9,276 nt of DNA, taken from a virus. Its lineage: Duplodnaviria > Heunggongvirae > Uroviricota > Caudoviricetes. Both the position numbers and the translations under genes were made by a program. The notes beneath the pieces were generated by a model. It did no database searches. It was not told the DNA's origin and was given only the letters and a program-made list of their open reading frames with translations. Location: IMG/VR virus record IMGVR_UViG_2737471845_000024, positions 1 through 9,276 of that record; one strand, 5' to 3'. This document shows positions 774-9,276 of this stretch, piece after piece (within the stretch, counting starts at the first letter, position 1; each line of letters starts with the position of its first letter).

Positions 774-881
774 AAATCAGCACGTACGAATTCAAACTCT
801 GCCATAAAAGAACATATAAGTAATTTATTAACATATAGATATAGGTTATATTACAAATTGAAAAATTATTGGAGAGCAACA

Positions 882-1748
882 ATGAATCAAAATCCATTCT
901 CATTCTATGACTTTCTTGGATATTTAATACCAGGTGGTTTTTTTATCCTATTAATGTATTTCTGTGGTTTGACATTCGATCTAGATATTGTTATTGACTT
1001 AAGTGAATTGCTCAGAGGTCAAAGTCAAATCTTTGGCATTTTGAACTACGCTTCAATAGTTATTATATCTTATATAGCTGGACATTTTATTTCTATCACG
1101 TCAGCATTTTTTATCGAAAAATACATGAATAAAGAATTAGGATATCCTTCCAAATATCTATTTAAAAAATTGATAGATACCTCAGAAAGCATTTGTAGCC
1201 CATCATGCGATGAGAGAAGCGCTGATAAAAAAACAAAAATAAAGAATCGCATAATCAAATGCGTATTATGCCCAATAATACTATGGGATTTTATAACACA
1301 AAAACTATGTTATTCTCAATCTCTACCATTTCATTTAGCTAATACAACATGGTTAATGATCAAAGAAGGTTATGAGAAAAAGTTCATAACAAATCGCCAA
1401 TTATTACAAGATAAAAACGGACTTGATGATGATCTCTTCAGATTGGCATATCATTATGTTTATGAGTTTTCAAAACAACATCAAACAAAAATTCAAAACT
1501 ATGTTGCATTATATGGTTTTTGCAGAAACATATGTTTAATCTTTATAATTTCATTTTGGGTATCAGTTCCAACCTTTATTTATCGATTATGTACTCATAG
1601 TGATTATCTTTATAGTTTACTTTCAATAATGCTTAGCTTTTTCTTCGTCTATGTTTTCTATGTTGGTTTTGTTAAATTTTATAGAAGATATACTTTAGAA
1701 GTATTAATGGCATTTGCTGTACTTCAAAGTAACGACACTATTCGTTAA
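882..1748 (+). CDS. AT-rich predicted 4-TM inner-membrane protein of unknown function (prophage moron)
   Basis: ATG 882 is preceded by GGAG 871-874 (7-nt spacer); the ORF-track start at 858 is a TTG. A hand-counted sample (901-1000) is ~29% GC, against ~53% in the adjacent yfdR-like gene. Two N-terminal hydrophobic helices (FLGYLIPGGFFILLMYFCGLTF; IFGILNYASIVIISYIAGHFISITSAFFI) and two C-terminal ones (LYGFCRNICLIFIISFWVSVPTFIY; LYSLLSIMLSFFFVYVFYVGFV) flank a ~130-aa basic hydrophilic domain with C-x3-C and C-x2-C pairs. No family recognised. Confidence 0.75.
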   Translation: MNQNPFSFYDFLGYLIPGGFFILLMYFCGLTFDLDIVIDLSELLRGQSQIFGILNYASIVIISYIAGHFISITSAFFIEKYMNKELGYPSKYLFKKLIDTSESICSPSCDERSADKKTKIKNRIIKCVLCPIILWDFITQKLCYSQSLPFHLANTTWLMIKEGYEKKFITNRQLLQDKNGLDDDLFRLAYHYVYEFSKQHQTKIQNYVALYGFCRNICLIFIISFWVSVPTFIYRLCTHSDYLYSLLSIMLSFFFVYVFYVGFVKFYRRYTLEVLMAFAVLQSNDTIR

Positions 1749-1789: not shown

Positions 1790-1996
1790 ATGCTGAACCT
1801 CGATTGTGTTCCTATCTCAACTTATTGCAAAGAAACTGGCGAAACTCCTGAAGCAATAAACAAACGTGTACAGCGCGGTGTTTGGCGTGAAGGTGTTCAG
1901 GTTTTAAAGGTTGAAGGCGTTAAGGAGAGGTGGATTGATCTTAGTGAGGTTGCAAAATGGGCCAGACAAAACTGCTCAAACTACCGCGCGGCGTAA
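1790..1996 (+). CDS. small excisionase-like (Xis/recombination directionality factor-type) DNA-binding protein
   Basis: ORF-track ORF 1751..1996. Preferred start is ATG 1790 (GGAG 1780-1783, 6-nt spacer), giving 68 aa: MLNLDCVPISTYCKETGETPEAINKRVQRGVWREGVQVLKVEGVKERW... It is small and basic, sits directly upstream of the integrase gene and overlaps it by 40 nt, as lambda xis-int does. The call rests on context and general resemblance, not on a proven motif. Confidence 0.55.
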   Translation: MLNLDCVPISTYCKETGETPEAINKRVQRGVWREGVQVLKVEGVKERWIDLSEVAKWARQNCSNYRAA

Positions 1997-3129
1997 CAAT
2001 CAGGAAACACCGCCAGGGAGAAACGATCAATATAACTTTCACCTACAAAGGAGTTAGATGTCGTGAGCCGCTTTCCAATCTGGAAGTAACACCAAAGAAC
2101 ATTAAATACGCCGAGCGTACACTCGGCGAAATCCATAATAAGATCGAAAGGGGAACATTCATTTATGCAGAATATTTTCCCCGTTCTGCTCGTTTGAAAA
2201 TTTTTGGTAATGCTGCTGCAGGCAAAACGGTAAAGATGTACCTGGACGAATATCTTGAAATCTGCGAAACAAGAAAACTTTCACCCTCTACGATTGGTGG
2301 CTATAAAAAATGCCGTAGTGCGTTAGCCTCACTTCACATTTGCCCTGCAAGTGAATTAACACCAGCAACCCTGAAAGCGTGGATTCAAAATCAGAAAACG
2401 ACCTTAAAAACAATTCGCAACCAGTTATCTTTCCTGCGGTCAGCACTTGATGAAGCCGTGACCGATGGGGTACTTCAAATTAACCCCGTATCGTTAGTAA
2501 CAGCTTCGCGCTACCAAAGTGATAAGTCAGAAGCAGAAAGCAGCTACGTAGTTGATCCGCTATCACCAGCAGAAGTTGATGCATTACTAGCAGCAGCCGG
2601 AAACAAACAATGGGAAAATCTGTTCCGGTTCGCTATACATACAGGCCTGCGTAGTTCTGAATTATGTGCCCTTCGATGGCGTGATATCGACTTTGTTGGA
2701 AAAACTGCCCATGTCCAGAGCGCAAGTGTTGTCGGTGTTATCAAAGGGACAAAGACAAAAGCAGGTACTCGGAAAGTTGAACTGACAGAAGAGGCAATGT
2801 TGGCGCTGATAAATCAGAAGCCATTTACATTCATGAAGGATACTACTGTCTTTGAAGATCCAAAGACCAATAAGCCTTGGGCAAGTGCTGATGCAATCAG
2901 GAAAAAAGCATGGGTGCCAACATTGCGAAAAGCAGGTATTCGTTACAGAAATCCATATCAAACTAGGCATACATTCGCCACCCGCCATATCAGCCGGGGA
3001 GCAAACCTGTTTTGGCTTGCAGCTCAAATGGGGCATAAAGGGCCGGAAATGTTATTTCGTCATTATGGTTCATATTTAAAGGAATATGACGGTAATACGA
3101 CCAGCAATATCACAAAAAAAGCCACTTAA
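1957..3129 (+). CDS. int: phage tyrosine recombinase / integrase (lambda-type, 390 aa)
   Basis: ATG 1957 with GAGG at 1946-1949. Tyrosine-recombinase catalytic signatures are visible in the translation: ...HTGLRSSELCALRWRDID... (box I Arg) and ...HTFATRHISRGANLFWLAAQMGHKGPEMLFRHYGSY... (H-x-x-R, conserved His, catalytic Tyr). The N-terminus KHRQGETINITFTYKGVRCRE looks like an arm-binding domain. Confidence 0.92.
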   Translation: MGQTKLLKLPRGVTIRKHRQGETINITFTYKGVRCREPLSNLEVTPKNIKYAERTLGEIHNKIERGTFIYAEYFPRSARLKIFGNAAAGKTVKMYLDEYLEICETRKLSPSTIGGYKKCRSALASLHICPASELTPATLKAWIQNQKTTLKTIRNQLSFLRSALDEAVTDGVLQINPVSLVTASRYQSDKSEAESSYVVDPLSPAEVDALLAAAGNKQWENLFRFAIHTGLRSSELCALRWRDIDFVGKTAHVQSASVVGVIKGTKTKAGTRKVELTEEAMLALINQKPFTFMKDTTVFEDPKTNKPWASADAIRKKAWVPTLRKAGIRYRNPYQTRHTFATRHISRGANLFWLAAQMGHKGPEMLFRHYGSYLKEYDGNTTSNITKKAT

Positions 3130-3140
3130 GTGGCTTTATC
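3114..3140. terminator. bidirectional intrinsic terminator between convergent gene ends
   Basis: A-run 3114-3120, then a perfect 20-nt palindrome aaagccacttaagtggcttt (3118-3137) that contains the int stop codon TAA (3127-3129), then T-rich sequence. On the minus strand the hairpin is followed by TTTTTTT. It lies between the int stop (3129) and the stop of the reverse 127-aa gene (3143). Confidence 0.5.
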
Positions 3141-3142
3141 AA

Positions 3143-3526
3143 TTAGGAGGCTCTCGATTTAAGCATTTCCGTACACTTAGCAAAGAGCCTCTCAGTTGTT
3201 AGAATCGCAACTTCAGACTGTTTAGAAGTGACCGATTGATCAAGTCGATAGTCTGCAACAATCCTCTGAGCTTTAAGTTGACTCAGGATAAAACTAATCC
3301 CTTTTAGATATCTAGCTTCATATACTTCACTTCCTCTTGAAGCATCGCCCTGCAAATAATTGATTAGCCCCTGATGACTGTCTTTCGGCCCGTTTACCAT
3401 ACAAGGCAAGACATGATGGTAAGCGCCATAGTAGGATCTTGCTATAGCATTTCGATAGCCGATTTCGTCATTACGTTGATGACAGTCTTTTGCAAAACCG
3501 AGAAAATCTTGACTATTAACCGGCAT
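3143..3526 (-). CDS. 127-aa helical protein, second gene of a two-gene cargo operon; tentatively HEPN-like fold
   Basis: ORF-track ORF 3143..3532 begins at a TTG. The ATG at 3526-3524 is preceded by GGAGGG (6-nt spacer) and overlaps the upstream gene's stop by 11 nt, indicating translational coupling. Translation: MPVNSQDFLGFAKDCHQRNDEIGYRNAIARSYYGAYHHV...LKAQRIVADYRLD... The AIARSYYGAYHH helix (R-x6-H) and a later R-x3-DY segment recall HEPN-family profiles; this is from memory and unverified. Confidence 0.65.
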   Translation of the reverse strand: MPVNSQDFLGFAKDCHQRNDEIGYRNAIARSYYGAYHHVLPCMVNGPKDSHQGLINYLQGDASRGSEVYEARYLKGISFILSQLKAQRIVADYRLDQSVTSKQSEVAILTTERLFAKCTEMLKSRAS

Positions 3527-4331
3527 GTGCAACCCTCCGGGTAATCAGACCTAATTCGGAGATAGCATTCTGCTCAATATGTGTGTCTTTACATTCAAAC
3601 CAAACAGCAAAATCTTTACCGACTAAACAATCGTGCTCAGCCATTGAAAAAGCAAGCTCAATATTCATATCAGCGATTTGTTCAGCATCAGAAGACTTTG
3701 TCATGAATACAATCGCATTCACTTTCTCTTCCGAAATATTATAAAAACGCATTCCCGAAAGATGAACCTTCTGAGAATCCATGACATTGGCTACATTATT
3801 GAAAATAAGTTCATATTCTAAACCAGAAAGATCGGCACGTTGCTTAAAGGATTCGACCTGGGAAACAACTTCATCAAGATTGTTGTCCATTTTTTCAGGC
3901 TCCTTATCTCCGAACAATTTAGAGTATGACTGGAAATACTTCTCCGCCAACGCCATCTTCCCCATAAAGAGGGAGTTTTCATAAGCTTGAAGATAAATAA
4001 ACGGGGATATGAAGCTTTCAGCAAGCTTAATGCTTGTTTCAAAGCTTTTCTTCAACGTACCGTAATCTGACAAGAAAACAAGAAAATTCTTTGCAACAAC
4101 CTCATTATGGCATACCTGCAAGGAACGCTCAAAGAAGCCTATCGCCTCATTCACTTGGCCATGTGCACCATAGACCAACGCTAAAAGATAGTCCTCAGAG
4201 ACAGGATCTCTAAGTGCTTCAATCTCACGTAACATCCTTCTAAAGCTAAAGTCATCAATCCTCACTCCATCTTTGAGGTATTTAGTTAGCCGCGCGCTAA
4301 TAACTGATGCTTTTTTTGCTGGCTGCAACAT
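3516..4331 (-). CDS. 271-aa helical protein with TPR-like N-terminal segment, first gene of the two-gene cargo operon; function unknown
   Basis: ATG 4331 is the only possible start (AAGG 6-7 nt upstream; in-frame stop upstream at 4446-4448 with no alternative start codon). TPR-like stretch ...DYLLALVYGAHGQVNEAIGFFERSL... No nucleotidyltransferase (GS...DxD), P-loop or nuclease motif seen. A hand-counted sample (3601-3700) is ~38% GC. Confidence 0.7.
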   Translation of the reverse strand: MLQPAKKASVISARLTKYLKDGVRIDDFSFRRMLREIEALRDPVSEDYLLALVYGAHGQVNEAIGFFERSLQVCHNEVVAKNFLVFLSDYGTLKKSFETSIKLAESFISPFIYLQAYENSLFMGKMALAEKYFQSYSKLFGDKEPEKMDNNLDEVVSQVESFKQRADLSGLEYELIFNNVANVMDSQKVHLSGMRFYNISEEKVNAIVFMTKSSDAEQIADMNIELAFSMAEHDCLVGKDFAVWFECKDTHIEQNAISELGLITRRVAHAG

Positions 4332-4456
4332 TAAAAACCTTATCTTACAAATAGTTGGTAATGATGTTGAATTATTTTTTGTTCTTTATGGCTAATAAGA
4401 TTACATGAAGGGACAACTTCTGACCACCTTAGAAAACACTCACTTTAGTAACAAGA

Positions 4457-4474
4457 GTCAATAATATTGTTGAC
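4457..4474. promoter_or_regulatory. 18-bp imperfect dyad (16/18) gtcaataatattgttgac, candidate operator in the intergenic region upstream of the reverse operon
   Basis: Its reverse complement is gtcaacaatattattgac, with a perfectly palindromic aatatt centre. It overlaps -35-like hexamers on both strands (TTGACA on plus, TTGACT on minus), but no convincing -10 partner was found. Confidence 0.25.
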
Positions 4475-4525
4475 AAATCACAAAAAAACAAACTTATCCA
4501 AAACAATCTGGTTTATCACAAAGCC

Positions 4526-4548
4526 TCTGTGCATAAATCTGTGCATAA
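4526..4548. repeat. tandem direct repeat tctgtgcataa x2 (12-bp period) in the phage arm next to the att core
   Basis: tctgtgcataa occurs at 4526-4536 and again at 4538-4548. It lies ~220 bp left of the att core in an A/T-tract-rich region and could be integrase arm-type sites or a regulator site. Confidence 0.3.
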
Positions 4549-4757
4549 CATCATTTTTACACACATTTTTTATAAAAATATTTTTTAGCAAAAAATGCTA
4601 TCTATCTCCGAAACTGCAACCACAAACCATTAATTCCAAATGAAACTATTTTAAAATAAATAGTAAGACAGTAACAGGACAGAAAAAGTTCCGCAAAAGA
4701 GCCGCTTGTAAAATCAACAATATTTGGCTATTTAAATTCAATGAATTACATAACTAT

Positions 4758-4789
4758 GGACACGGGTTCAACTCCCGCCAGCTCCACCA
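4758..4789 (+). repeat. partial copy of the tmRNA (ssrA) 3' terminus: attachment-site core at the junction of two integrative elements
   Basis: ggacacgggttcaactcccgccagctccacca has a T-loop (TTCAACT), the acceptor 3' strand and CCA. It matches my recollection of the E. coli ssrA 3' end GGACGCGGGTTCAACTCCCGCCAGCTCCACCA with one mismatch (A at 4762, weakening the T-stem). The ~330 nt upstream are AT-rich and show no tmRNA features such as the tag-reading frame, so this is not a functional gene copy. Confidence 0.7.
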
Positions 4790-4836
4790 AAATTCTCCAT
4801 CGGTGATTACCAGAGTCATCCGATGAAGTCCTAAGA

Positions 4837-4868
4837 GCCCGCACGGCGCAAGCCCTGCGGGCTTTTTT
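4837..4868 (+). terminator. rho-independent terminator downstream of the ssrA-derived core
   Basis: gcccgca-N12-tgcgggc stem (alternative inner stem agccc/gggct) followed by TTTTTT at 4863-4868. Confidence 0.55.
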
Positions 4869-6374: not shown

Positions 6375-9276
6375 CTATTTTAAATCAGCCTTTGCGGCTC
6401 GAATATCTGCGTTTTTTGCTGAGTATTCCCATTCGTCAGCGATTCTAAATAGCATTGCAGAAGTACGGACGCAGTGGGGCATTGAATTTGCCCATTCTCG
6501 GTACTGCTCAGCTAATATCCTTTCTTGGTTTCCACCTTCGTAACGCATACGAGCAAATACCCCCCTTTTATTGTACCTACCAATTTGTATACCTTGCTCT
6601 AACTCATCAGAAGATAATATTTCAATGATGTGCCGAATTGCTTCATGTGGCCAGGAATTATCTACTGAGCTATTAGGGGCATGTGCCAGAATTTTTCCTA
6701 TTACATGATCAGTGATTTCTTGGCGATGATGCAATTTTGCTAAATGGCGTACATTCTCACACCAATCTTCAAGTTTATCTTGATCAATTTCATTGTCTAT
6801 CTGCCCTGGTAGTATTCGTAATTTTTCAAGTAATCTGTATATAGAAGTAGCTCTTTTAACTTCCAACTCCGATGGTTCTGTTTGTTCATCTTCGTCACTA
6901 CGATATACAATACATATTGCTTCTATAAAAACCTCTGGCTTTTTCATCATTAGACGATGCAGGATAAGTGGCTCATCGCTATCCGGAAAACAAGGCAAGT
7001 AGGTCATTTCTTTAAATGCCAAATCTGTTTCAGAAACATCGTTACGTTGTTTGAGTTCATCAAAAACTTTTTTTACATAGTACGATAGCATTGTATCAAA
7101 TTGGATATCCTGGCTATTTATTTCTTTAACGACTATATCTAGAAGATATAAAAGTGTTGTAGATGGAATCTCAGAAAGGCGTTGATTTGCTGATATAATA
7201 GCAGCAAGACCCCGGCCCCTTTCTATATATTTATCCATAAGAACAAATAAATCCGAAGTTTTACCCATCATTGCAATGGGTTGTTTTTGCAACCAATATT
7301 TTTCGTTGATGTTATCTTCAAACCCTTCAATAATGCTCCATATCTCTTGTGAGTCTCTTAACGATGCTAAGATTTTCCCAGCCCTATCAGGGGTAATTTT
7401 AAACTGTTTAAAATACACTTTTATTTTATTAAGCCATTCAGCACCAAAGCATTCAACACCATATTGCATTAACAACCCACAAACTTCATCAATATTTTTT
7501 TTGTTGTTAATAAGCATTACAAACAAATCATTTAATTTTTCTTCATCCAACGAGAGTGCTGATATATGCCTTGCTGCAATAAAAACATTATTAACTTGTT
7601 GAAAAAGGTCTTTCACCCCAGACAAACCTAAAGTAAAGTATATTTCCCTAAGTTTTTCACTTCGCATTTCTGCGACAGAAGAAAAAATTCCGCCAGCATT
7701 TTCAATTGACTCTTCAATATCAGAATCCCAATCATTGAAAATCCATAAACTGGCTCTAACCATGTCAATTGGTTTATAATTATCAAGTATTTTCGCTATT
7801 TTTTCCATAGACTCAAATTTAAATGCCCAGTTCGCATCTGAATATTTTTTATGGCGAGAATACTCATGACGCAAAGCCTCCCATACGATGAACTGATCCT
7901 CTTCAGTTTGTTGAGAAAGGCAAAGTTCAAGATGAGAAAGTGTTTCATCTATTGCATTCTCAGGGAATGAGCTTAAATGAGAGATTAGGATTTCCCATCT
8001 TGTTGGGAGTATACCTGCAAGTTTAATTGCTTCTTGGATAATAAAGATTTGCCCCTCCCAAACAACGCCCCACGTTAGTTTTTCTACATCTTTATCCGAC
8101 TCTCTGAACTTCATTTTTTGGTTTTGATCAGAGGTATCATGGGAGCGAGGAAGGAGATTTTGTAACAAACTCCACCCAATACTAGGAACAATAGTGATAA
8201 TTTTTTTTATAATTGCATTTCTAACTTTTACTGGTGCCCATGTATTAGGAGACCATGCCAGAAAAATGGTTCTTAAACTATTAAGAGGGCGATCTGAGTA
8301 AGTTCCTCCGGGATCTATTACAGCGAGTTTTGCAAGACAGATTGCAGCGCGTAATAGATATGTTTGTTCCCAAGCCAAGGCTTCCAATGCCCATTTTAAT
8401 CCATGATAATGACTTCGAGGAGTTAACAGCCCTTTATCTTCATTGAATATTGGAGCAATCATTTCCCCATTGCCCTTAAGCAATTGCTCAAGGGCATCAA
8501 GGAAAGGGCCAGGGGCAGCTTCTGCCAGCAGCGGAAGTTGATCTCGCAAACTAACAAATAGTCGATGGTCGTTAGCAAGTCCCGGAATACTCTGAACTAT
8601 TTTGTTAACAAAATCTTGGGGTGTCATACCAGTAACCCGGAATTCGGCCTGTTCATGTAATATTGCCATATGTAGCAAAACTGTTGTCATTCCATTACGT
8701 AACCACGAGCTATAAGACGTTTTAATACCATTGTCAGGTACAAACAGATCTTCGGCCTTTGGTGGTTCAGGAATATAGGAAAAAACCTCTCTTACGGCCT
8801 TCTCAAAACGCTCCAGGTGTTCTTCACCCAGCAAATAGCCTAAATGTACAAAAGCATCTACCGACGAACGCAATGACCAAATATCATCTACTCGGTCAAT
8901 TGGAGAATCGCGGCGCTTTGTTAATAGCCTTAATGGATTTTCAACTTGAGAATAGTCTGTATAGCCAGCTAGTTGCTTGAGAATTAACTTATCTTTCTCT
9001 GAACATGTACTCCATGCACCAGCTAATAAAGCAGGGAGCAACTCAGGGCTGTCTTTCCATTCAGGTGATTCAGCCGTGCTACTTGATATCTGGCGAGCCA
9101 AAACAGACAAACTTCGGCCACACTGCCGCGCTATTTGATAACTTTTATCTGAATCAAACCCCATAGATTCAAGAGCCTTACCTAAAGATATACTATCTGG
9201 GCGGATCAGAAGTTCGTGATCAGTTCGTGTTTCATCGGCTCCGGCACTTACTACTGTGTGAAGTGGTTTACTGAAT
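6375..9276 (-). CDS. large uncharacterized protein (>966 aa visible, N-terminus beyond right window edge); predicted mostly alpha-helical; candidate cargo/defence protein
   Basis: The reverse-strand frame is open from the window edge to TAG at 6375-6377. The ORF-track start (Met at 9164) is internal: the 37 codons upstream (9165-9275) are open in the same frame (...FSKPLHTVVSAGADETRTDHELLIRPDSISLGKALES-MGFDSD...). No P-loop, helicase, nuclease or methyltransferase signature was recognised by eye. Base composition is heterogeneous (see findings). Confidence 0.88.
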   Translation of the reverse strand, partial: FSKPLHTVVSAGADETRTDHELLIRPDSISLGKALESMGFDSDKSYQIARQCGRSLSVLARQISSSTAESPEWKDSPELLPALLAGAWSTCSEKDKLILKQLAGYTDYSQVENPLRLLTKRRDSPIDRVDDIWSLRSSVDAFVHLGYLLGEEHLERFEKAVREVFSYIPEPPKAEDLFVPDNGIKTSYSSWLRNGMTTVLLHMAILHEQAEFRVTGMTPQDFVNKIVQSIPGLANDHRLFVSLRDQLPLLAEAAPGPFLDALEQLLKGNGEMIAPIFNEDKGLLTPRSHYHGLKWALEALAWEQTYLLRAAICLAKLAVIDPGGTYSDRPLNSLRTIFLAWSPNTWAPVKVRNAIIKKIITIVPSIGWSLLQNLLPRSHDTSDQNQKMKFRESDKDVEKLTWGVVWEGQIFIIQEAIKLAGILPTRWEILISHLSSFPENAIDETLSHLELCLSQQTEEDQFIVWEALRHEYSRHKKYSDANWAFKFESMEKIAKILDNYKPIDMVRASLWIFNDWDSDIEESIENAGGIFSSVAEMRSEKLREIYFTLGLSGVKDLFQQVNNVFIAARHISALSLDEEKLNDLFVMLINNKKNIDEVCGLLMQYGVECFGAEWLNKIKVYFKQFKITPDRAGKILASLRDSQEIWSIIEGFEDNINEKYWLQKQPIAMMGKTSDLFVLMDKYIERGRGLAAIISANQRLSEIPSTTLLYLLDIVVKEINSQDIQFDTMLSYYVKKVFDELKQRNDVSETDLAFKEMTYLPCFPDSDEPLILHRLMMKKPEVFIEAICIVYRSDEDEQTEPSELEVKRATSIYRLLEKLRILPGQIDNEIDQDKLEDWCENVRHLAKLHHRQEITDHVIGKILAHAPNSSVDNSWPHEAIRHIIEILSSDELEQGIQIGRYNKRGVFARMRYEGGNQERILAEQYREWANSMPHCVRTSAMLFRIADEWEYSAKNADIRAAKADLK

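What the first reader, a model, noticed from the sequence alone, without database searches (positions are those of the whole stretch)
3143..4331. Translationally coupled two-gene cargo operon (271 aa + 127 aa) between the lambdoid integrase and the att core; small protein may be HEPN-like
Both genes are on the strand opposite to int, and the second gene's ATG overlaps the first gene's stop by 11 nt with a GGAGGG RBS inside the upstream coding sequence, which implies fixed stoichiometry as in toxin-antitoxin or sensor-effector pairs. The larger protein has a TPR-like segment but no nucleotidyltransferase motif, so this is not a classical MNT-HEPN pair. The smaller protein has an R-x6-H stretch (RSYYGAYH) and an R-x3-DY stretch that recall HEPN folds. 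The pair sits in a moron position between int and att, and a hand-counted sample is ~38% GC. I cannot assign it to any named system.
Basis: partly seen in the sequence, partly recalled or inferred. Interest (0 to 1): 0.7.

Follow-up and report, generated by a model that had tools for sequence, protein, structure and literature searches.

The report
Prophage HEPN–TPR two-gene defence-like cassette
Two overlapping genes at the end of an E. coli prophage encode a HEPN-fold putative RNase and an uncharacterised helical-repeat partner; the pair always travels together through accessory-gene slots of many temperate phages and looks like an undescribed toxin-antitoxin-type anti-phage module.

Summary
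Two minus-strand genes (271 aa, 4331..3516; 127 aa, 3526..3143) overlap by 11 nt, with GGAGGG six nt before the second ATG. They lie between a lambdoid integrase and the ssrA-derived att core.

The large protein is a TPR-like array plus a small acidic α/β cap. It has no nucleotidyltransferase features and no Pfam, PADLOC, NCBIfam or PDB relative. About 200 uniform-length family representatives exist.

The pair co-occurs in 89 of 89 loci carrying an intact HEPN homologue, mostly with start/stop overlap. It occupies many phage moron slots (int–att, Q–lysis, tail, P2 gpA–gpQ, Mu-like) and never plasmids. In sibling E. coli prophages the same int–att slot carries DarT1–NADAR or other cargos.

Best reading: a HEPN effector/toxin held by a TPR antitoxin/sensor that replaces MNT. 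It is a new variant of HEPN TA/abortive-infection systems. Function is untested.

The parts
3516..4331 (-). Gene 1: 271-aa acidic protein (pI 5.2). It has about 5 TPR-like helical hairpins (res ~4-187) and a small beta-beta-alpha-beta cap (res 191-247) carrying the family's best-conserved motif D221-M-N-x-E-L-A...F245-E246. The tail (249-271) is disordered and variable. Proposed antitoxin/sensor.
3143..3526 (-). Gene 2: 127-aa HEPN-domain protein of the AF0298/UPF0332 (HEPN-T, COG2250-like) type. Invariant residues are R25, N26, R30, Y32, Y33, Y36, H37, H51, R88, D92 and Y93. Proposed RNase effector/toxin.
3516..3538 (-). Coupling junction: GGAGGG (3538..3533), a 6-nt spacer, the ATG of gene 2 (3526..3524), and the TAA of gene 1 (3518..3516). 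The overlap is 11 nt.
   Evidence: Sequence. Start/stop overlap is conserved in 70 of 76 viral-contig loci; -11 is the commonest value (30 loci).
3118..3137 (.). GC-rich hairpin flanked by A/T runs, between the convergent stops of int (3129) and the HEPN gene (3143). Likely a bidirectional terminator.
   Evidence: Terminator scan.
4332..4732 (-). Cargo-specific AT-rich (28.8% GC) upstream region; the promoter is not pinned down. Features: AAGG RBS at 4341..4338; -10-like TGTAAT at 4405..4400 inside a motif (TCATGTAAyCTT) shared by Enterobacterales loci; palindrome GTCAATAATATTGTTGAC at 4457-4474; direct repeat TCTGTGCATAA x2 at 4526-4548.
   Evidence: No consensus sigma-70 match on the minus strand at the scan threshold.
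4742..4790 (+). 3' fragment of ssrA (tmRNA) ending ...CAGCTCCACCA. This is the att core that bounds the prophage. It is followed by the ssrA terminator (4850-4864) and a P4-type integrase of the next island.
   Evidence: Rfam tmRNA partial hit. Sequence. Homology with sibling prophages resumes here.
1957..3129 (+). Lambdoid tyrosine integrase (context). It is convergent with the pair and present in 412 of 5426 complete E. coli genomes.
   Evidence: Pfam..
3093..4732 (.). Variable cargo slot of this prophage family, between the int 3' end and the att core.
   Evidence: blastn break-points. Alternative cargos: DarT1+NADAR, a STAS-like 3-gene operon, a 259-aa gene. Counts are 33, 126 and 50 genomes, against 44 for this pair.

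Best explanation
A self-contained, phage-borne two-gene module of the toxin-antitoxin / abortive-infection kind.

Gene 2 encodes a HEPN-fold protein of the AF0298/UPF0332 branch. I infer it is an RNase-type effector that uses a non-canonical site: R88, D92 and Y93 at the end of helix 3, plus H51 from the helix 2-3 insert.

Gene 1 occupies the position that the minimal nucleotidyltransferase (MNT) antitoxin has in classical MNT-HEPN operons. It encodes instead an acidic TPR-like scaffold with a small α/β cap and no conserved catalytic residues. I infer that it binds and silences the HEPN protein stoichiometrically, which would explain the conserved translational coupling. I also infer that its repeat surface may serve as the trigger sensor: a phage protein, or loss of the labile partner, would release the nuclease and arrest growth or phage replication.

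Shown here: the gene structure, the HEPN fold and subfamily, the absence of NTase features in the partner, strict co-occurrence, and residence in phage accessory and defence hotspots.

Inferred: toxicity, neutralisation by binding, RNA as the target, and anti-phage function.
For: - The invariant polar set R88/D92/Y93/H51 matches the alternative active site proposed for AF0298-like HEPN-T proteins (PMC3710099).
- Gene order is partner-then-HEPN with overlap, as in MNT-HEPN. COG2250 HEPN normally pairs with COG1708 MNT (PMC2701414).
- Co-occurrence: 13/13 genome loci with an intact HEPN homologue (L013 holds only degraded remnants of both genes), 76/76 viral contigs, 2 phage records, and a read-through or fusion in a high-GC lineage.
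- The family spans Enterobacterales, Aeromonas, Gilliamella, Vibrio phage and Thiotrichaceae, with big-protein identity down to about 15%.
- The partner has no invariant catalytic residues. It is uniformly acidic (pI 4.6-5.3), with -11 charge in residues 146-250, whereas this HEPN has pI 8.8.
- The partner diverges roughly twice as fast as the HEPN across loci. It shows 6 nonsynonymous to 3 synonymous changes between E. coli alleles, against 0 to 1 for HEPN.
- Decay pattern: in L015 the HEPN gene carries an internal deletion of residues 18-77 while the partner is intact.
- Hotspot evidence: the same int-att slot carries DarT1-NADAR in 33 genomes. The pair also sits in the P2 gpA-gpQ defence hotspot (PMC9122126), tail-to-tail with at least four integrase lineages, and in Q-lysis, tail/antirepressor, nin-like and Mu GemA-lysozyme slots.
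- It is absent from 72,556 plasmids.
Against: - No experiment exists for this pair or, to my knowledge, for RNase activity of any AF0298-type HEPN.
- The canonical Rx4-6H histidine is missing.
- The window protein itself does not reach any Pfam threshold. The only PADLOC hit is weak and partial (HEPN_IX, E=1.3e-3).
- No DNA-binding domain was found in the partner, so classical autoregulation is not evident.
- A solo HEPN homologue without the partner exists in Yersinia phage YP3. This argues that at least some relatives are not constitutively toxic.
- No complex model could be computed.
- Hotspot residence is guilt by association. Most alternative cargos in the slot are themselves uncharacterised.
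Confidence: 0.55

Rival explanations
1. A pure addiction or stabilisation toxin-antitoxin module. It would keep the prophage, or the chromosomal segment, from being lost, with no role in excluding other phages.
For: The architecture is TA-like. The distribution is patchy and mobile, including insertions between housekeeping genes: murJ|flgN, frr|MFS, and after prfB. The pair persists beside a decayed integrase remnant in 53 E. coli genomes.
Against: There is no copy on any of 72,556 plasmids, where addiction modules are most common. The pair is strongly biased to phage moron and defence hotspots shared with DarTG. No DNA-binding antitoxin domain was found.
Confidence: 0.17
2. A non-toxic accessory pair. 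Here the HEPN domain acts as a ligand- or nucleotide-binding or adaptor module, as in the substrate-binding domains of nucleotidyltransferases or in sacsin. The TPR protein would be a scaffold or chaperone, and the pair would serve phage regulation or lysogenic conversion.
For: The canonical catalytic His is absent. The KNTase_C/HEPN fold also serves as a substrate-binding domain. A solo homologue exists in a phage structural module. TPR hits include chaperones such as AcrH and IpgC.
Against: An invariant polar cluster (R25, N26, R30, H51, R88, D92, Y93) is retained over large distances. The deletion seen in L015 removes exactly the conserved HEPN core while sparing the partner. The slot is shared with a bona fide toxin system. 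There is no enzymatic partner that would need a substrate-binding subunit.
Confidence: 0.15
3. A counter-defence or host-takeover module. The phage would use it to cleave host RNAs or signalling nucleotides during lytic growth, for example when read through from pR' in the Q-lysis slot.
For: In several phages the pair lies directly after antiterminator Q or among late genes.
Against: In the window it is transcribed on its own from the att side, convergent to int, which is typical of lysogen-expressed morons. Copies exist outside prophages. There is no similarity to known anti-defence proteins.
Confidence: 0.06

Closest known systems
MNT-HEPN (MntA-HepT) type II/VII toxin-antitoxin systems, including the COG1708 MNT + COG2250 HEPN pairs of thermophiles
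   Different: The partner is a 271-aa TPR-like protein with a small α/β cap, not a nucleotidyltransferase. It has no NTP_transf hit, no invariant GS/DxD, and a different fold. Neutralisation by AMPylation is therefore excluded unless an enzyme acts in trans. The HEPN motif is R-x3-D rather than Rx4-6H. The characterised HepT toxins belong to the DUF86 branch.
RnlA-RnlB / LsoA-LsoB (HEPN RNase toxins with non-enzymatic protein antitoxins; anti-T4 abortive infection)
   Different: In those systems the toxin is large and multi-domain, comes first, and has a canonical Rx4-6H motif, and the antitoxin is small. Here the HEPN protein is minimal (127 aa) and comes second, and the partner is the large, repeat-containing protein.
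HepS (Gifsy-1 prophage single-protein HEPN abortive-infection system; PMC13043305)
   Different: HepS works alone, has a canonical R100-H105 motif, and senses the trigger itself. Here a separate, obligatorily linked TPR-like protein is present.
HEPN families previously noted next to helical-repeat partners: AbiU2 with a Sel1-repeat gene, and LA2681 fused to or adjacent to TPR (Anantharaman et al. 2013, PMC3710099)
   Same: The theme of a HEPN nuclease combined with a TPR/Sel1-type repeat protein in one operon.
   Different: Those are different HEPN families with a canonical Rx4-6H. They were described only by comparative genomics. Here the HEPN is of the nucleotidyltransferase-associated HEPN-T branch. 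I did not test sequence relatedness of the partners.
DarT1-NADAR (DarTG1) in the same int-att slot of sibling prophages
   Same: Same slot, same strand, and a two-gene toxin/antitoxin layout.
   Different: The proteins and the chemistry (DNA ADP-ribosylation) are unrelated. The gene order is toxin first.

Membership tests
HEPN superfamily (fold level) | Up-down four-helix bundle with an insert between helices 2 and 3, structurally superposable on solved HEPN domains | tested here: met
AF0298-like HEPN-T / UPF0332 / COG2250 (Pfam PF05168) | Sequence-profile membership in PF05168 / UPF0332 | tested here: inconclusive
   The window protein has no Pfam hit at E<=1. However, 25 of 32 family members hit PF05168 (best E 2e-5). 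The family profile hits PDB HEPN entries 9xbd (3e-5), 9xbc and 2hsb. JGI labels homologues 'UPF0332 family'.
AF0298-like HEPN-T / UPF0332 / COG2250 (Pfam PF05168) | Asp replaces His in the Rx4-6H position at the end of helix 3, with an alternative conserved His in the helix 2-3 insert (PMC3710099) | tested here: met
   R88-I-V-A-D92-Y93 lies at the end of helix 71-93, and H51 at the start of the insert helix. All are invariant in 32 sequences. They align to the ...SSH... and R-x-R-S-D-Y stretches of 9xbd.
Canonical HEPN RNases (HepT, Cas13, Csm6, RnlA, HepS) | Rx4-6H catalytic motif at the end of helix 3 | tested here: not met
Canonical HEPN RNases (HepT, Cas13, Csm6, RnlA, HepS) | Ribonuclease activity | not testable with these tools
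   Needs a biochemical assay.
Classical MNT-HEPN toxin-antitoxin | The partner is a minimal nucleotidyltransferase (pol-beta fold; GS...DxD motif) | tested here: not met
   No NTP_transf hit. The only invariant residues in the partner family are L49 and F67. The fold is TPR-like helices plus a beta-beta-alpha-beta unit.
Classical MNT-HEPN toxin-antitoxin | Two-gene operon with the partner upstream and the HEPN downstream, usually overlapping | tested here: met
Type II-like toxin-antitoxin modules (general) | Conserved two-gene linkage with horizontal mobility | tested here: met
   89/89 loci carrying an intact HEPN homologue. Contexts are diverse.
Type II-like toxin-antitoxin modules (general) | The antitoxin carries a DNA-binding domain and autoregulates through an operator | tested here: inconclusive
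   No DNA-binding domain was found; there is only a chance-level HTH_54 hit (E 0.15). A palindrome lies upstream (4457-4474), but it is not conserved across loci.
Type II-like toxin-antitoxin modules (general) | Toxicity of one product, neutralised by the other | not testable with these tools
   Only indirect hints: the HEPN-specific deletion in L015 and the acidic-partner/basic-HEPN charge pattern.
Catalogued anti-phage defence systems (PADLOC-DB v2) | Significant match of the components to a system model | tested here: not met
   The only hit is HEPN_IX, E 1.3e-3, partial. There are no hits for the partner or for 10 distant relatives. The accessions are absent from the DefensePredictor supplements that are held.
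Catalogued anti-phage defence systems (PADLOC-DB v2) | Residence in a recognised defence hotspot | tested here: met
   The int-att slot alternates with DarT1-NADAR. A Vibrio phage carries the pair in the P2 gpA-gpQ hotspot.

The most novel reading that the evidence does not exclude
The pair is a new, widespread family of phage-borne immune systems. A dedicated TPR-like receptor-antitoxin would recognise a protein of an incoming phage and release an AF0298-type HEPN nuclease that cuts RNA with a non-canonical Arg/Asp/Tyr + distal-His site. That would give the first biological function for the bacterial UPF0332 branch outside MNT pairing, and the first case in which the MNT antitoxin has been swapped for a non-enzymatic sensor.
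Probability: 0.3. Interest if true: 0.75.

Novelty: new variant of a known kind. Interest (0 to 1): 0.6.

Why it matters
HEPN nucleases are the effectors of Cas13, Csm6, RnlA, HepT and HepS. The abundant UPF0332/AF0298 branch, however, has no demonstrated activity and is known only as the partner of minimal nucleotidyltransferases.

Here the same HEPN type is strictly coupled to a different, non-enzymatic TPR-like protein. It rides in at least six different accessory slots of temperate phages, including slots that carry validated defence systems. The pair is present in the well-studied strain CFT073 (c3205 and its neighbour).

If it is a defence or TA module, three things follow:
- It would add a compact (1.2 kb) system to the E. 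coli pan-immune repertoire.
- It would show how an antitoxin can be exchanged for a putative sensor.
- It would give a tractable handle on the catalytic mechanism of His-less HEPN domains.

The analysis also delineates a new prophage hotspot (int–attR at ssrA) with several uncharacterised cargos.

Tried and rejected
- The PDB profile search ranked polyubiquitin chains first. This is an artefact: a 25-residue 'L-x-D-x-R-x-x-DY' stretch scores about 4 bits per ubiquitin repeat and sums over the repeats. I ignored these hits.
- Single-sequence searches of the small protein against Pfam, NCBIfam and PDB found nothing. Only family-level searches reveal HEPN.
- A PDB sequence search with the partner's profile gave only a chance hit, dihydroneopterin aldolase, E 0.53.
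- Weak hits were judged to be noise: VapB15 (E 0.047), HTH_54, and PrlF in one distant relative.
- The afdb50 fold library was unavailable. The 57-residue C-terminal cap could therefore not be searched alone. Its resemblance to a permuted ferredoxin-like unit is my own reading of the secondary-structure order and is untested.
- No complex prediction was possible.
- The sigma-70 scan gave no minus-strand promoter upstream of 4331. The palindromes are not conserved between loci.
- I considered that the pair belongs to the adjacent P4-integrase island. I rejected this because CFT073 and APEC O1-type prophages lack that island while the slot remains next to int, and because the break-points bracket the pair between int and the ssrA core.
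- Literature searches for UPF0332+HEPN, 9XBD, c3205/CFT073, and TPR+HEPN systems found no description of this pair.
- The Rfam hits inside the genes (SNORA38, SpF51) are far below gathering score and were dismissed.

Full report
**What is there**

The window is E. coli chromosome. The 1.35-kb region occurs at 99% identity or more in 44 of 5,426 complete genomes, always chromosomal, and these include CFT073.

On the minus strand, an ATG at 4331 opens a 271-codon gene that ends with TAA at 3518..3516. A second gene starts at the ATG at 3526 and ends at 3143, giving 127 aa. The junction reads GGAGGG-TTGCAC-ATG-CCG-GTT-AA, so the two genes overlap by 11 nt and a strong Shine-Dalgarno sequence lies inside the first gene. 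RefSeq annotates the same two CDS, both as hypothetical.

The pair is convergent with a lambdoid integrase at 1957-3129. A GC hairpin at 3118-3137 lies between the two stop codons. Upstream of the pair is about 400 bp of 29% GC DNA. Then comes a 3' fragment of ssrA at about 4742-4790, followed by a P4-type integrase of a second island. The pair itself is 40.4% GC.

**The slot**

The same integrase is present in 412 genomes. Alignment of sibling prophages with the window shows that homology ends at about 3090, in the last int codons, and resumes at about 4733-4757, at the ssrA core. Everything in between is exchangeable cargo.

At the int junction I found:
- a three-gene operon with a STAS-like protein, in 126 genomes;
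- a 259-aa gene, in 50 genomes;
- the present pair, in 44 genomes;
- DarT1 plus its NADAR antitoxin, in 33 genomes.

About 150 further genomes carry cargos I did not sample. DarTG is a known toxin-antitoxin anti-phage system (this is from my own knowledge). Its presence in the same slot and on the same strand makes this a defence-type hotspot. CFT073 and APEC O1 have the slot without the neighbouring P4 island, so the pair belongs to the lambdoid prophage.

**The small protein is a HEPN domain**

Alone it hits nothing in Pfam, NCBIfam or PDB. It has only a weak partial PADLOC hit (HEPN_IX, 1.3e-3).

Its family is more informative. There are 50 clusters, mostly Enterobacterales. Of 32 aligned members, 25 hit PF05168 HEPN. 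The family profile finds the solved 'HEPN domain-containing' proteins 9xbd and 9xbc and the UPF0332 protein AF0298. Some sources already label homologues UPF0332 or HEPN.

Invariant residues are D20, E21, R25, N26, R30, Y32, Y33, Y36, H37, P47, H51, R88, D92 and Y93. Anantharaman et al. describe exactly this variant for AF0298-like 'HEPN-T' proteins. The histidine of Rx4-6H is replaced by Asp, and a second conserved His from the insert between helices 2 and 3 may complete an alternative active site (PMC3710099). [quoted passage not shown]

It is the family's RxYY signature, and its His is not conserved in 9xbd. 'HEPN-like' is therefore right, but the motif assignment needs this correction.

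**The large protein**

By sequence it shows only sub-threshold TPR hits. It has no hit in NCBIfam, PADLOC or PDB. It belongs to phrog_17809, of unknown function.

An exhaustive profile search found 203 representatives at 50% identity. Nearly all are 245-275 aa and match full length. Ten distant ones again show only weak TPR hits and no PADLOC hit.

Across the family almost nothing is invariant (L49 and F67 only). There is no GS/DxD signature and no nucleotidyltransferase fold. The protein looks like a binder, not an enzyme.

It is uniformly acidic (pI 4.6-5.3), and the charge is concentrated in residues 146-250. The window's HEPN has pI 8.8.

It also diverges about twice as fast as HEPN between the same loci: for example 58 against 74%, 34 against 59%, and 24 against 45% identity. 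Between two E. coli alleles it shows 6 nonsynonymous to 3 synonymous changes, against 0 to 1 for HEPN.

**Linkage**

A scan of one genome per species found 12 loci with a HEPN homologue, and two further loci came from look-ups of distant partner proteins. In the 13 loci where the HEPN gene is intact, a partner homologue lies immediately upstream on the same strand; in the twelfth scan locus (Proteus hauseri, L013) both genes are degraded. These loci include Gilliamella and Thiotrichaceae, where the partner is only about 15-20% identical.

In IMG/VR, 76 of 76 loci carry both genes in the same order. In 70 of them the estimated junction overlaps, and -11 is the commonest value. Two deposited phage genomes carry the pair. 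A high-GC representative is a read-through of partner into HEPN.

There are two exceptions:
- L015 has an intact partner next to a HEPN gene with residues 18-77 deleted, which is the conserved core. This is what one expects if HEPN is the harmful component.
- Yersinia phage YP3 has a solo, more distant HEPN homologue.

**Where it rides**

- It sits tail-to-tail with at least four integrase lineages (22 of 76 viral loci, plus L004 and L005).
- In 53 more E. coli genomes it lies beside an integrase remnant.
- It lies directly after antiterminator Q, before lysis or methylase genes.
- It lies between tail genes and antirepressors.
- It lies between Mu GemA and lysozyme.
- In a Vibrio P2-like phage it lies between the portal/ogr genes and gpA. 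This is the gpA-gpQ defence hotspot described by Rousset et al..
- It is also inserted between housekeeping genes.
- No copy exists on 72,556 plasmids.

This is the behaviour of a phage moron or defence cassette rather than a plasmid addiction module.

**Interpretation**

COG2250/UPF0332 HEPN proteins normally follow a minimal nucleotidyltransferase in mobile two-gene operons that are predicted to be TA systems. For the DUF86 branch this has been shown experimentally (PMC2701414; structures appear).

Here the MNT position is filled by a non-enzymatic, acidic, fast-evolving TPR-like protein whose translation is coupled to that of the HEPN. The most economical reading is a HEPN effector or toxin held by stoichiometric binding, with the repeat protein as antitoxin and possibly as trigger sensor. 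Recent precedents exist for prophage HEPN abortive-infection proteins that are activated by phage structural proteins (HepS; PMC13043305).

None of the functional steps is demonstrated: toxicity, RNA cleavage, neutralisation, sensing, or phage exclusion. The lack of the canonical histidine leaves room for a non-catalytic role.

I give the TA/defence reading 0.55. Pure addiction gets 0.17, a non-toxic accessory role 0.15, and counter-defence 0.06.

**Novelty**

I found no paper, PADLOC model or DefensePredictor entry for this pair. Databases call the proteins 'hypothetical', or automatically 'Tetratricopeptide repeat protein' and 'HEPN domain-containing protein'. HEPN-plus-repeat-protein operons have been noted for other HEPN families, namely AbiU2/Sel1 and LA2681/TPR.

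I therefore rate it a new variant of a known kind. It is a solid, testable candidate of moderate-to-good interest, and it is present in the model strain CFT073.

Noticed in passing
window 858-1748 (+): A 296-aa ORF at 28.5% GC between yfdR and xis. It matches phrog_12528 (unknown function) and gives weak hits to the type VI-B CRISPR accessory membrane protein Csx27 (PADLOC 1.4e-5; NCBIfam 0.02). It is a second variable cargo: sibling prophages L017 and L019 carry two unrelated small genes there.
   Followed up: partly
window 6375-9276 (-): A large ORF on the P4-type-integrase island; 929 aa from the ATG at 9164, and the reading frame stays open to the window edge. It has no Pfam, PADLOC or NCBIfam hit. 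It matches positions 326-1255 of the 1258-residue phrog_18693 (E 0), so the gene probably continues beyond the window.
   Followed up: partly
L016/L018 5871-7741 (E. coli Ecol_545, APEC O1), same int-att slot: The commonest cargo in this slot (126 genomes) is an uncharacterised three-gene operon: 303 aa, a 108-aa STAS-like protein, and 199 aa (phrog_3364, phrog_5816, phrog_30059, all of unknown function). By position it is another candidate defence system.
   Followed up: partly
L017 5913-6692 (E. coli C1), same slot: A single 259-aa hypothetical gene (phrog_7259) occupies the slot in 50 genomes. Unlike the other cargos it is on the same strand as int.
   Followed up: no
L023 3025-6921 (E. coli FORC_042 and 52 other genomes): A diverged copy of the pair (255 + 127 aa) sits beside a frameshifted integrase remnant, and a second prophage is integrated in tandem. 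That prophage's own int-att slot holds a DUF2971 gene. The pair has outlived the prophage that brought it.
   Followed up: partly
L015 5797-5960 (Pseudomonadota MAG): The HEPN gene has been reduced to residues 1-17 and 78-115 by an internal deletion, while the partner gene is intact. Directly downstream is an AAA_15/AAA_21 ATPase plus DUF3226 pair and a Macro-domain gene, which looks like a small defence island.
   Followed up: partly
L022 3507-3866 (Yersinia phage YP3): A solo HEPN homologue (E 5e-19 to the family profile) with no TPR-like partner, embedded among structural and baseplate genes.
   Followed up: no
L020 3498-3896 (Klebsiella phage ST405-OXA48phi1.3, MK416008): The HEPN gene is an intact 132-codon ORF, but the record annotates it as two short CDS. 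This is an annotation error in the record.
   Followed up: yes
window 4526-4548 and 4457-4474: A perfect tandem repeat TCTGTGCATAA x2 (12-nt spacing) and an 18-bp near-palindrome GTCAATAATATTGTTGAC lie in the AT-rich region between the pair and the att core. They could be operator sites or integrase arm-type sites. Neither is conserved in other loci.
   Followed up: partly
window 4780-4868 (+): A weak Rfam IsrM hit (32 bits against a gathering score of 376) covers the stretch just after the ssrA 3' end, including its terminator hairpin (4850-4864). It probably reflects shared ssrA-flanking sequence rather than an sRNA.
   Followed up: no
L004, L005, L023 upstream of the partner gene: These loci share a promoter-like TTGGAA-N16-TGTAAC element and a 5'-UTR hairpin (GATTGCTT...AAGCAAC). 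The window has only the TCATGTAATCTT part (4400-4411).
   Followed up: partly
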